Shown here one piece after another: positions 12,001-15,000 of a stretch of 64,000 bases of DNA (the stretch's first letter is position 1; each line of letters opens with the position of its first letter). Location: assembly GCF_058153355.1 (NCBI RefSeq), contig NZ_CM177019.1. One strand, given 5' to 3'. The position numbers were made by a program.

Positions 12001-15000
12001 GGCATATGCGCCGCCGAGCATTTTGAATGCGTTCAGACCGAATCGTTTTGATTCGTCCTTAACGAGAATTTTTTTTACCCCAAAAAGGTTTGCGAGATCG
12101 TCCAGCGCGCAAAGTGGTGTTGGGCGATAGCCAGCAATTTTCTGGTGGAACTGGCGCGCCAGTTTTGCCTGGCTTTGCGAAAAGAGCGGTGATGTTTCGC
12201 CGTTGAAAAATTTGTTATCGGCGATATCAATCTTCAATGAGAAAACGGACATATCCTATCCTTTTGGCCTCTGGAAATAGAGAGCCGACCTGTCGATCGG
12301 CCCGAGGGGGTTATTTCACGCGTTCTTGCGCTTCTTTCAGCAGTTGTTCGAGCAGTGCGCCTGGTTTGGAATATTTACGGGAAAGGATCATTGCTGCGAT
12401 GATGTATGGCTTCCAGCTGGCTTCTTTGTAGGTCGCGATACGGTATTTTTCGAATACGCCTTCAGTGACTTCACCTTCTTTGCAGGATACGCCGCTGATA
12501 TCTGCTGGCAGGCAGTGCATGTACAGGGCTTCGCCATCACGGGTCAGTTCCATCATCTCTTCAGTGCAATGCCAGTCTTTGTGTTGCGCGTTCTGTGCCA
12601 GACACTGTTTTTCCAGTGCTTTTAAGCCTTCGTGATCGTTCGCACGCAGCAGTTCAGTACGCTCTTCCATCACTTTGTAAGGTGCCCATGACTTCGGATA
12701 AACGATGTCTGCGTCTTTGAAGGCTTCTTCCATGCTGGTGACCTGACGGAAGCTACCGCCAGAGGCTTTAGCATTATTTTTCGCTACTTCAACTACATCC
12801 GGGATCAAATCGTAGCCTTCCGGATGGGCCAGGGTGACGTCCATACCGAAGCGGGTCATCAGGCCGATAATGCCTTGCGGTACAGAGAGCGGTTTGCCGT
12901 AGCTTGGGGAGTATGCCCAGGTCATGGCGATTTTTTTACCTTTCAGGTTTTCGAGCGAACCAAAGTGTTCACGCAACCATGCCAGGTCAGCCATTGACTG
13001 AGTCGGATGGTCGATATCGCATTGCAGGTTCACTAAAGCCGGACGCTGTGGAAGCACGCCCTGCTTGTAGCCGTCATCAAGCGCAGCGCCAACTTCACGC
13101 ATATAGGCGTTACCTGCGCCCAGATACATATCGTCACGAATACCAATAGCGTCGGCGCAGAAGGAGATCATATTGGCGGTTTCACGTACGGTTTCGCCGT
13201 GAGCGATTTGTGATTTGCCTTCGTCGAGATCTTGCTGTGCAAGGCCGAGCAGGTTAAGCGCGGAAGCATAAGAGAAGCGGGTACGGGTGGAGTTGTCGCG
13301 GAATACGGAAATACCTAATCCACTATTAAAGACTTTGGTTGAGATGTTTTCAGCACGCAGTGCTTTTAATGCTGCGGCAACGTCCAGTACTTGTTTCAGT
13401 TCATCAGGCGTCTGTTCCCACGTTAACAAAAAATCTTTCTCGTGAAGGTGAGAGGTCAGCGAATTGATATCCTTAATCAGCTCATTAACAGTTTTCATCA
13501 TAAAGTCCCGGTAGTGGAATGACAGGCAAAGTGGTTTATTTCACTGTGACTTGCCAAAGTGATTGGTGTTTTCACAGCTATACCAGGGACTAACAATAAG
13601 TGTGCCAGAATTATCCACGCGGCTATAAAAGACTAATTTGACGGGTAATGTGTGGTGTAGATCACAAATTGATGCCAGCTTCCGGTTGTGTGTAAAATAC
13701 GAAAACGTTTGGCTTTTTTTATTGCGTTGTTTATTTGCTGCTAAGTATCAGAAATAAGATAAAGGGGCAGGCTATCCCTCGTCAGTTTGATAAACTCACC
13801 GCTGTAATTCTCATATTGATATAGAAATGTGATATCTCTTCCATAATTTCATTAGAAAGTGATAAAAACCTTATGTTTTTATCAAAGCCAATTTCGCCTG
13901 AGTTAATATCATGATGATCTGTGAACCATCAACGTCTTCAATGATCGACTTTTAAGTAAGTCTGGAAGGTAAAGCTATGGAGCTTGCTACTACGCAGTCA
14001 GTATTGATGCAAATTCAACCGACAATTCAGCGTTTTGCCAGAATGCTTGCCAGCGTTTTGCAGCTTGAGGTTGAGATCGTTGATGAAAACTTGTGTCGCG
14101 TCGCCGGAACGGGCGCGTATGGGAAGTTTCTTGGCCGCCAGTTGAGCGGCAACTCACGCCTGCTCCGCCACGTCCTGGAAACGAAAACTGAAAAAGTTGT
14201 GACACAGTCTCGCTTCGATCCCCTTTGCGAAGGTTGCGATAATAAAGATAATTGTCGCGAAAAAGCATTTCTGGGTACGCCTGTCATTTTACAGGATCGT
14301 TGTGTTGGGGTGATAAGTTTGATTGCAGTTACCCACGAGCAACAAGAACATATCAGTGATAATTTACGCGAGTTTTCTGATTACGTTCGCCATATATCCA
14401 CCATTTTTGTTTCGAAACTTCTGGAAGATCAGGGACCAGGAGATAACATCAGTAAAATATTTGCGACCATGATCGATAATATGGATCAGGGCGTTTTAGT
14501 TGTTGATGACGAAAATCGGGTTCAGTTTGTTAATCAGACTGCCTTAAAAACACTCGGTGTTGTGCAAAATAATATTATTGGGAAACCTATTCGTTTCAGA
14601 CCATTAACATTTGAGAGTAATTTTACCCATGGACATATGCAGCATATTGTTTCGTGGGACGATAAAAGTGAATTAATCATTGGTCAATTACATAACATTC
14701 AGGGCCGACAATTATTTTTAATGGCGTTTCACCAATCGCATACCAGTTTTTCTGTAGCAAATGCACCTGATGAACCGCATATTGAACAATTGGTTGGCGA
14801 GTGCCGTGTTATGCGGCAATTAAAACGACTCATTAGCCGTATTGCACCCAGCCCATCCAGCGTTATGGTGGTTGGTGAAAGCGGCACGGGTAAAGAAGTC
14901 GTCGCGCGTGCAATCCATAAGTTGAGTGGAAGACGAAATAAACCCTTTATTGCTATCAACTGTGCCGCGATTCCTGAACAACTTCTGGAGAGCGAACTAT

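What the first reader, a model, noticed from the sequence alone, without database searches (positions are those of the whole stretch)
13560..13976. Candidate sigma54 promoter for the ygeW operon facing the divergent enhancer-binding-protein gene ygeV
A TGGCAC-N5-TTGT element on the minus strand about 90 bp upstream of ygeW fits a -24/-12 promoter, though with a weak -12 (GT instead of GC). This would make the ygeW-ygeX-ygeY-hyuA-yqeA block the target of YgeV.
Basis: partly seen in the sequence, partly recalled or inferred. Interest (0 to 1): 0.3.

Follow-up and report, generated by a model that had tools for sequence, protein, structure and literature searches.

The report
Known sigma-54 promoter of ygeW operon
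The flagged element is a real sigma-54 (-24/-12) promoter in front of the E. coli ygeW uric-acid-degradation operon; sigma-54 binding at exactly this sequence was already published in 2015, so the finding is correct but not new.

Summary
The window is E. coli. CTGGCACACTTATTGTT lies at 13592-13608 on the minus strand, 91 nt upstream of the ygeW ATG, with correct -24/-12 spacing and T instead of C at -12.

The sequence match alone is not beyond chance for a 64 kb window. Three other things make it real:
- Position: about 0.001 such hits are expected in this spacer on this strand.
- Conservation: TGGCA and TTG are invariant upstream of ygeW in 39 species of Gamma- and Betaproteobacteria.
- Published data: the same 17-mer is sigma-54 ChIP-seq site OS30 (Bonocora 2015). 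RpoN holoenzyme binds the ygeV/ygeW spacer in gSELEX (Shimada 2021). ygeWXY belongs to the "YgeV iModulon" (Lamoureux 2023).

New here:
- A palindrome, TATCA-N3-TGATA, sits 160-265 bp upstream of the promoter in 36 of 39 species. It also lies upstream of the xdhA, ygfK and ygfT sigma-54 sites, so it is probably the YgeV enhancer.
- A CRP site at -77.5 is conserved in Enterobacterales and Aeromonas and matches a published CRP gSELEX site.
- The -12 base is T, A or G, never C, in all 39 species.

Direct proof (transcription start, rpoN and ygeV dependence) is not in the literature I could read. Novelty: already known. Interest: low.

The parts
13592..13608 (-). Sigma-54 -24/-12 promoter element CTGGCACACTTATTGTT (GG at -25/-24, G at -13, T instead of C at -12)
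   Evidence: Sequence. Top PWM hit of the window. Identical to ChIP-seq site OS30 of Bonocora 2015. TGGCA and TTG invariant in 39 orthologous promoters. The surrounding 30-mer is exact in 4860 of about 5181 E. coli genomes that carry the region.
13579..13583 (-). Predicted transcription start (about 13581), inferred as 12 nt downstream of the -12 position
   Evidence: Inference from sigma-54 promoter geometry. Not confirmed: no entry near this position in the Cappable-seq supplement that is held.
13502..13581 (-). Predicted 80-nt 5' UTR of ygeW, with GCTG...CAGC boxes and a conserved GCCYGTCATTCAC-ACC-AGGA block ending in the Shine-Dalgarno sequence
   Evidence: Alignments. The hairpin is not unusual by energy (z -0.70). 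No covariation. No Rfam match.
13651..13666 (.). CRP site TGTGATCTACACCACA (minus strand), centred at -77.5 from the predicted start
   Evidence: One mismatch to TGTGA-N6-TCACA. Conserved at -76.5 to -78.5 in Enterobacterales and Aeromonas. The K-12 version TGTGATCAACCCCACA is listed as a CRP genomic-SELEX site for ygeV/ygeW (PMC3105977, supplementary file 4). Called the 'native Crp-binding site' in PMC12507026.
13809..13821 (.). Main candidate YgeV enhancer palindrome TATCAATATGAGA (minus strand; consensus TATCA-N3-TGATA), centre about -234
   Evidence: An orthologous palindrome, mostly perfect, is present in 36 of 39 species at -162 to -265. About 180-fold enriched in this zone compared with the rest of the same loci.
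13822..13834 (.). Adjacent imperfect site TATCACATTTCTA (minus strand), part of the conserved ATCACATTT..TATCAATATGA block
13780..13792 (.). Third site TATCAAACTGACG (minus strand). TTATCA-N3-TG is conserved; centre about -205
13977..15755 (+). ygeV, the divergent sigma-54 enhancer-binding protein (592 aa: PAS, Sigma54_activat, AAA lid, HTH_8)
13860..13909 (+). Putative ygeV sigma-70 promoter zone: perfect inverted repeat TGATAAAAAC-N5-GTTTTTATCA (13860-13884) over a weak -35, and a conserved -10-like TAATAT (13904-13909)
   Evidence: repeat I4. Conserved ATGATAYTAAC and TTGATA blocks in the alignment. Promoter assignment is inference; the consensus scan did not call it.
12311..13501 (-). ygeW (knotted carbamoyltransferase), first gene downstream of the promoter
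7369..12252 (-). Downstream genes ygeX/dpaL (11056-12252), ygeY (9787-10998), hyuA (8349-9734) and yqeA/arcC (7369-8301), separated by 47-58-nt gaps
   Evidence: Terminator-like hairpins at 9750-9769 (between ygeY and hyuA) and 7337-7362 (after yqeA).
19513..19529 (-). Sister sigma-54 promoter of xdhABC (CTGGCGTAAATCTTGCC), with TATCA-N3-TGATA-like sites at 19648-19660 and 19627-19639
3955..3971 (-). Sister sigma-54 promoter of ygfK-ssnA (GTGGTGCGATTGTTGCT), with a perfect palindrome at 4140-4152 and a perfect CRP core at 4034-4049

Best explanation
Window 13592-13608 (minus strand) is the sigma-54-dependent promoter of the ygeW operon: ygeW-ygeX-ygeY, with read-through into hyuA-yqeA. These genes encode the late steps of anaerobic, reductive uric-acid degradation.

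Proposed mechanism:
- RNA polymerase carrying sigma-54 sits on the -24 TGGCAC / -12 TTGT element as a closed complex. Binding is shown by published ChIP-seq and gSELEX.
- Transcription would start about 12 nt downstream, near 13581, giving an 80-nt leader. This is inferred.
- Opening of the complex requires the AAA+ activator YgeV, encoded divergently. YgeV most likely binds the cluster of TATCA-N3-TGATA palindromes at about -205 to -247 (window 13780-13834). This is inferred from conservation and from recurrence of the palindrome upstream of the xdhA, ygfK and ygfT sigma-54 sites.
- cAMP-CRP binds a conserved site at -77.5, between enhancer and promoter. Its in vitro binding is published. It probably bends the DNA or otherwise assists, which would make the operon subject to glucose repression. 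The role is inferred.
- T at -12 is a tolerated variant, as in pspA and pspG. It has stayed non-C throughout the evolution of this promoter.
For: - Exact spacing and top PWM rank; about 0.001 such hits expected by chance in this spacer and strand.
- The identical 17-mer is ChIP-seq site OS30, with sister sites at xdhA, ygfK and ygfT.
- RpoN holoenzyme gSELEX peak in the ygeV/ygeW spacer.
- The element is conserved upstream of ygeW in 39 species of Enterobacterales, Aeromonas, Photobacterium and Betaproteobacteria, while its flanks diverge.
- The 30-mer is exact in 4860 E. coli genomes.
- YgeV has the full enhancer-binding-protein domain set and is adjacent in most species.
- ygeW, ygeX, ygeY and hyuA are in the YgeV iModulon.
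- TATCANNNTGATA at one mismatch or fewer: 6 hits in the 36-kb K-12 cluster against 0.92 expected. Five of the six fall in the four spacers that carry sigma-54 sites.
- The palindrome is present in 36 of 39 orthologous promoters and is about 180-fold enriched there.
- The CRP site is conserved at a fixed distance and is listed in CRP gSELEX.
- Wild-type uric-acid degradation is glucose-repressed, and the repression is relieved when the spacer is replaced by constitutive promoters.
- No convincing sigma-70 promoter for ygeW in the spacer.
Against: - No transcription start has been mapped here (one search found none), and I found no test of ygeW expression in rpoN or ygeV mutants.
- In vivo sigma-54 occupancy is weak (fold-above-threshold 3).
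- Bonocora et al. stress that a binding site is not necessarily a promoter.
- No YgeV-DNA binding data exist, so the palindrome assignment is purely comparative. E. coli's own main site is imperfect (TGAGA).
- CRP could equally repress, or could serve ygeV or a sigma-70 promoter.
- The enhancer lies unusually far upstream (about -235), and no exact IHF core consensus is present.
- YgeV has also been described as an indole-responsive virulence regulator, IsrR, with no link drawn to this operon.
Confidence: 0.82

Rival explanations
1. The element binds sigma-54 holoenzyme but is a poised, non-productive site. ygeW would actually be transcribed by sigma-70 RNA polymerase from a CRP-activated promoter in the same spacer.
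For: - Low ChIP occupancy (fold-above-threshold 3) and the authors' warning that binding sites need not be promoters.
- A bona fide CRP site lies upstream, and the pathway is glucose-repressed.
- The -12 C is missing.
Against: - No sigma-70-like promoter is appropriately placed downstream of the CRP site.
- The -24/-12 bases are invariant across two proteobacterial classes while the flanks drift, which implies selection on sigma-54 recognition.
- An enhancer-binding-protein gene and a conserved upstream palindrome accompany the element.
- Betaproteobacteria and Photobacterium keep the sigma-54 element without the CRP site.
Confidence: 0.08
2. It is a functional sigma-54 promoter, but the activator is another enhancer-binding protein (for example NtrC under nitrogen limitation), not YgeV.
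For: - The nearby intragenic yqeC sigma-54 promoter responds to nitrogen limitation.
- There is no direct YgeV-ygeW experiment.
- YgeV has been assigned an indole/virulence role.
Against: - Adding NtrC did not change the RpoN gSELEX signal at this spacer (53% versus 55%).
- No NtrC-type site is conserved in the spacer. The conserved upstream blocks are the TATCA-N3-TGATA palindromes, shared by the cluster's promoters.
- ygeV-ygeW synteny is conserved.
- A ygeV mutant is reported to be impaired in uric-acid consumption (cited), and ygfT expression is reported reduced in a YgeV mutant (cited).
Confidence: 0.07
3. It is a chance resemblance to the sigma-54 consensus with no function.
For: Consensus matching is not above chance for the window. 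45% of random 64-kb sequences contain a hit of equal PWM score.
Against: Published ChIP-seq at this exact motif, gSELEX, conservation in 39 species and near-invariance in E. coli.
Confidence: 0.01

Closest known systems
Sigma-54 ChIP-seq site OS30 (ygeW) of Bonocora, Smith, Lapierre and Wade 2015 (PMC4591121)
   Same: It is the same object: motif CTGGCACACTTATTGTT, same strand relative to ygeW, listed distance 80.
   Different: Nothing differs. That paper records only binding (fold-above-threshold 3) and does not discuss the activator, the enhancer or CRP.
pspA and pspG promoters of E. coli (PspF-dependent)
   Same: Confirmed sigma-54 promoters whose -12 element is TTGT rather than TTGC (TTGGCACGCAAATTGTA and TTGGCATGATTCTTGTA).
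   Different: Different activator (PspF has no sensory domain) and a stress function rather than catabolism. Their ChIP occupancy is higher (21 and 15 versus 3).
prpBCDE promoter with divergent prpR (propionate catabolism)
   Same: A catabolic sigma-54 promoter with a divergently encoded enhancer-binding protein. It depends on cAMP-CRP in addition to the activator and sigma-54 (as summarised in PMC10101121).
   Different: prpBCDE uses IHF as well. No exact IHF core was found here. The effector is 2-methylcitrate, whereas YgeV's effector is unknown.
Sister promoters of the same cluster: xdhA (OS29), ygfK (OS31), ygfT (OS32)
   Same: Sigma-54 ChIP sites carrying the same upstream TATCA-N3-TGATA palindrome. 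ygfK and ygfT also have CRP gSELEX sites, at positions in 10-bp register with the ygeW site: -67.5/-68.5 and -97.5 against -77.5.
   Different: All three have canonical GC at -12; only ygeW has GT. xdhA was not found in the CRP gSELEX look-up.
DioR sigma-54 regulon of Clostridiales (PMC6615313)
   Same: A sigma-54 enhancer-binding protein controls ygeW-ygfK-ssnA-ygeY, dpaL and related genes in Firmicutes, so sigma-54 control of this pathway recurs across phyla.
   Different: Different regulator family name and different organisms. Homology of DioR to YgeV, and similarity of their binding sites, were not tested here.

Membership tests
Sigma-54 (RpoN) -24/-12 promoter | GG at -24 and a G(C) doublet at -12, separated by exactly one helical turn (TGGCAC-N5-TTGC) | tested here: met
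   TGGCAC-N5-TTGT with exact spacing. PWM score 15.9 bits, near the median of 41 known sites. Only the -12 C is replaced, by T, as in pspA and pspG.
Sigma-54 (RpoN) -24/-12 promoter | Occupied by sigma-54 holoenzyme in vivo or in vitro | not testable with these tools
   Published: ChIP-seq OS30 and the gSELEX peak in the ygeV/ygeW spacer. Read from papers, not measured here.
Sigma-54 (RpoN) -24/-12 promoter | Transcription starts about 12 nt downstream of the -12 element and is rpoN-dependent | not testable with these tools
   No start-site entry in the Cappable-seq supplement that is held. No rpoN-mutant data for ygeW were found.
Sigma-54 (RpoN) -24/-12 promoter | Requires an AAA+ enhancer-binding protein bound at upstream activating sequences | tested here: inconclusive
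   The enhancer-binding-protein gene ygeV is adjacent. A conserved palindrome cluster lies at -205 to -247 and is shared with the sister promoters. Binding and dependence have not been shown.
Sigma-54 (RpoN) -24/-12 promoter | Promoter bases conserved in orthologous regions more than their flanks | tested here: met
   TGGCA and TTG are invariant in 39 species; neighbouring columns vary.
YgeV regulon (candidate) | A shared cis-element upstream of co-expressed sigma-54 promoters | tested here: met
   Five of six TATCANNNTGATA hits in the 36-kb cluster lie in the four spacers that carry sigma-54 sites, against 0.92 hits expected.
CRP-regulated promoter | A TGTGA-N6-TCACA site bound by cAMP-CRP | tested here: met
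   Sequence match with one mismatch, conserved at a fixed distance. The same 16-mer is listed in CRP gSELEX. The regulatory effect on PygeW is untested.

The most novel reading that the evidence does not exclude
PygeW and its sister promoters may form a distinct, evolutionarily stable sub-type of sigma-54 promoter. In this reading cAMP-CRP, bound at a fixed, helically phased position (-67.5, -77.5 or -97.5), takes the architectural role usually played by IHF. A persistently non-consensus -12 base (T, A or G; never C in 39 species) would keep closed-complex occupancy low. Transcription would then need both YgeV bound at TATCA-N3-TGATA enhancers and catabolite de-repression. The palindrome would be the first defined YgeV operator and would allow the whole YgeV (uricolytic) regulon to be predicted across Proteobacteria.
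Probability: 0.3. Interest if true: 0.45.

Novelty: already known. Interest (0 to 1): 0.2.

Why it matters
The ygeW operon encodes the late steps of the recently solved anaerobic uric-acid (2,8-dioxopurine) pathway of gut bacteria, which is relevant to gout and to engineered uricolytic probiotics. Knowing that its native promoter is sigma-54/YgeV-dependent and CRP-linked explains two things: the pathway is silent in standard media and repressed by glucose, and engineers had to replace this spacer with constitutive promoters.

The promoter itself is already documented. The modest added value here is a testable YgeV operator (TATCA-N3-TGATA) and a conserved promoter layout.

Tried and rejected
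- Simple consensus statistics: TGGCACNNNNNTTGC at one mismatch is not enriched (2 hits against 5.4 expected). Significance cannot rest on the match alone.
- A recurring TTGGCCCGGGNAAYGAA 'sigma-54-like' motif upstream of ygeW in Riflebacteria and Bacteroidales. It lies inside the coding sequence of the upstream ygeY-like gene (it encodes GFGPGNE), so it is not a promoter.
- Riboswitch or known RNA in the leader or in distant loci: no Rfam family.
- Structured 5' UTR: the hairpin energy is ordinary (z -0.70). The alignment fold gives 4 invariant pairs and no covariation.
- Sigma-70 promoter for ygeW: none convincing.
- IHF core consensus: no exact match in the spacer.
- PurR box at 13699-13714: attractive by eye, but the pattern statistics are at chance. 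Kept only as a lead.
- Transcription-start look-up in the Cappable-seq supplement: nothing found. The file may be truncated or the promoter silent.
- Reitzer and Schneider 2001 and Iwadate and Kato 2019 are not held. Their content is cited only through papers that quote them.
- Helical phasing of the enhancer relative to the promoter across species: no clean periodicity, so it was not used.
- A plus-strand TGGCTTTTTTTATTGC (13710-13725) pointing at ygeV: the spacing is 1 bp too long, so it was rejected as a sigma-54 promoter.
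Full report
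**Identity of the locus.** The window is Escherichia coli. It is 100% identical to strain 2013C-4282 and about 98% identical to most other E. coli, and it runs in reverse orientation relative to K-12. ygeW is at 12311-13501 (minus strand) and ygeV at 13977-15755 (plus strand). The 475-bp spacer between them is 13502-13976.

**The observation.** The minus strand of 13592-13608 reads CTGGCACACTTATTGTT, that is TGGCAC-N5-TTGT. The spacing is canonical. The -13 G is present and the -12 C is replaced by T. The element ends 91 nt upstream of the ygeW ATG. The description is accurate.

**Is it more than chance?** Not from the match alone.
- The consensus with one mismatch occurs twice in the window against 5.4 expected.
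- I built a PWM from 41 other intergenic sigma-54 sites listed by Bonocora et al., leaving this site out. It ranks this site first of all positions on both strands at 15.9 bits, close to the training median of 16.4.
- However, 0.26-0.58 hits of that quality are expected per random 64 kb, and 45% of simulated windows contain one.
- The expectation falls to about 0.001 for this spacer on the strand that faces ygeW.

**Independent evidence: conservation.** I fetched 80 ygeW loci from other species. In 39 of them a sigma-54 element scoring 12.7-16.8 bits lies 65-109 nt upstream of ygeW, with one exception at 228 nt. These 39 cover Citrobacter, Atlantibacter, Klebsiella, Edwardsiella, Pluralibacter, Trabulsiella, Kluyvera, Serratia, Cedecea, Hafnia, Kosakonia, Morganella, Erwinia, Intestinirhabdus, Aeromonas, Photobacterium, and Rhodocyclaceae, Comamonadaceae and other Betaproteobacteria. 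TGGCA and TTG are invariant while the flanks diverge. Within E. coli, the 30-mer around the element is exact in 4860 of about 5181 genomes that carry the region.

**Independent evidence: literature.**
- The identical 17-mer is in vivo sigma-54 ChIP-seq site OS30 in Bonocora et al. 2015. It is assigned to ygeW at distance 80, with fold-above-threshold 3 and no EcoCyc flag (PMC4591121, Table 1).
- The same table lists sites for xdhA (OS29), ygfK (OS31) and ygfT (OS32). A validated intragenic promoter in yqeC drives yqeB (IS34).
- Shimada et al. 2021 found an RpoN-holoenzyme gSELEX peak in the ygeV/ygeW spacer. NtrC did not change it (PMC8743547).
- Lamoureux et al. 2023 define a 'YgeV iModulon'. 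They state that sigma-54 promoters upstream of xdhABC and ygeWXY had been identified by Reitzer and Schneider 2001 (PMC10602906). The gene list of that iModulon, which includes ygeW, ygeX, ygeY and hyuA, is given in PMC12133099.

The core finding is therefore real and already known.

**The 'weak' -12.** In the 41-site set the -12 base is C in 38, T in 2 and A in 1. The two T cases are pspA and pspG, both confirmed promoters. T is therefore a tolerated minority variant.

Across the 39 orthologous ygeW promoters the base is T in 21, A in 13, G in 5 and never C, while the neighbouring G is invariant. This needs only two or three substitution events, so it is not statistical proof of selection against C. 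It does show that the promoter has functioned without the consensus C since before the Beta/Gamma split. The sister promoters xdhA, ygfK and ygfT have GC.

**The rest of the spacer.** Phylogenetic footprinting of 20 Enterobacterales spacers shows discrete conserved blocks.
1. **Enhancer-like cluster.** The block ATCACATTT..TATCAATATGA(G/T)A..TTTATCA-N3-TG is at window 13780-13834. Its core is the palindrome TATCA-N3-TGATA.
2. **CRP site.** TGTGA-N6-TC(A/G)CA is at 13651-13666, at a fixed distance from the -24 element.
3. **The -24/-12 element itself.**
4. **Leader blocks.** GCTG...CAGC, and GCCYGTCATTCAC-ACC-AGGA just before the start codon.
5. **Near ygeV.** A TTGATA block and ATGATAYTAAC, whose reverse complement contains TAATAT. 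This is probably the ygeV sigma-70 promoter.

**Candidate YgeV enhancer.**
- In the 36-kb K-12 cluster, TATCANNNTGATA at one mismatch or fewer occurs 6 times against 0.92 expected. Five of the six hits lie in the four spacers that carry sigma-54 ChIP sites:
  - xdhA: -152, with a 2-mismatch site at -131.
  - ygeW: -234, with weaker sites at -247 and -205 and a further hit at -332 next to the ygeV -10 region.
  - ygfK: -202, a perfect palindrome.
  - ygfT: -199, identical to the ygeW site.
- In 36 of the 39 orthologous ygeW promoters the palindrome, mostly perfect, lies at -162 to -265.
- Its density in that zone is 2.6 per kb against 0.015 per kb in the rest of the same loci.
- YgeV is the only enhancer-binding protein encoded in the cluster. 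It has PAS, sigma-54-interaction AAA+, lid and Fis-type HTH domains. Its gene is divergent from ygeW in nearly all Enterobacterales and Photobacterium loci examined.

I therefore infer that TATCA-N3-TGATA is the YgeV operator. No binding experiment exists in the literature I could search.

**CRP.**
- The site is centred at -77.5 from the predicted start. It is conserved at -76.5 to -78.5 in Enterobacterales and Aeromonas, and absent in Photobacterium and Betaproteobacteria.
- The K-12 16-mer TGTGATCAACCCCACA appears in the CRP genomic-SELEX table of Shimada et al. 2011. So do the sites I had found upstream of ygfK (-97.5 and -67.5) and ygfT (-68.5) (PMC3105977, supplementary file 4).
- These positions differ by multiples of 10 bp.
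- The Life Metabolism 2025 paper calls this the native Crp-binding site. It shows that wild-type uric-acid degradation is glucose-repressed and that replacing the spacer with constitutive promoters relieves the repression.
- No exact IHF core is present in the spacer.

My reading is that CRP acts positively as a bending co-factor between enhancer and promoter, by analogy with prpBCDE. Its sign and mechanism are untested.

**Operon extent.** ygeW, ygeX, ygeY, hyuA and yqeA are co-oriented with 47-58-nt gaps. A strong terminator follows yqeA at 7337-7362. A GC-rich hairpin with a T-run lies between ygeY and hyuA at 9750-9769. hyuA is in the YgeV iModulon and has no sigma-54 site of its own, so partial read-through is the simplest reading.

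**What remains unproven.** Three things were not found in any source available here: the transcription start, rpoN and ygeV dependence of ygeW itself, and YgeV's ligand. Urate is plausible. Indole induces ygeV transcription.

**Verdict.** The added details (operator candidate, fixed CRP position, persistent non-C at -12) are useful leads rather than surprises.

Noticed in passing
window 13699-13714: A PurR-operator-like sequence, ACGAAAACGTTTGGCT (core AAACGTTT), lies between the enhancer cluster and the CRP site. It is conserved only in E. coli, Citrobacter, Atlantibacter, Klebsiella indica and Trabulsiella. A similar AAACGTTTGCGT lies upstream of ygfK (about 4180-4195). Pattern statistics are at chance (1 hit against 1.13 expected), so this is only a lead for a purine-repressor input into the uricolytic cluster.
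   Followed up: partly
window 11964-11976 (inside ygeX/dpaL): An exact TATCA-N3-TGATA palindrome lies about 280 bp into the ygeX coding sequence. An exact palindrome is present at the corresponding place in Citrobacter (L004), Kosakonia (L025) and Serratia (L040). It could be a downstream YgeV site or simply coding-sequence conservation.
   Followed up: partly
window 27-43 (-), inside ssnA: CTGGCACGATTAGCGCA scores 14.1 bits on the sigma-54 PWM, third best in the window, in sense orientation within ssnA. ssnA does not appear in the Bonocora et al. text or tables.
   Followed up: partly
window 9750-9769 (-) and 7337-7362 (-): There is a terminator-like GC-rich hairpin with a T-run between ygeY and hyuA, and a strong terminator after yqeA/arcC. 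The first may split or attenuate the presumed five-gene operon.
   Followed up: partly
window 13502-13581 (-): The predicted ygeW leader carries GCTG...CAGC boxes and a conserved GCCYGTCATTCAC-ACC-AGGA stretch abutting the Shine-Dalgarno sequence across Enterobacterales. There is no covariation and no Rfam match. It is a possible translational or sRNA target, or a protein-binding site on the DNA.
   Followed up: partly
window 13860-13919 (+): A perfect 10-bp inverted repeat, TGATAAAAAC-N5-GTTTTTATCA, and a TATCATGATGATC site overlap the putative ygeV -35 and -10 (TAATAT at 13904-13909). They contain the same TATCA half-sites as the enhancer, which suggests YgeV autoregulation.
   Followed up: no
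window 13710-13725 (+): TGGCTTTTTTTATTGC resembles a -24/-12 element pointing toward ygeV, but the GG-to-GC spacing is 1 bp too long. It overlaps the PurR-like box.
   Followed up: yes
window 4034-4049 and 4140-4152; K-12 locus L002 33161-33173: The ygfK spacer carries a perfect CRP core, TGTGA-N6-TCACA, and a perfect TATCATAATGATA palindrome. The ygfT/uacT spacer in K-12 carries TATCAATATGAGA, identical to the ygeW site. Together with xdhA these define a candidate YgeV regulon signature.
   Followed up: yes
loci L042, L045, L059, L066, L068, L076, L078: In Riflebacteria and Bacteroidales ygeW is preceded by a ygeY-like peptidase gene rather than by an enhancer-binding-protein gene, and no sigma-54 element is found upstream. 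The gene order and regulation of the cluster differ outside Proteobacteria.
   Followed up: partly
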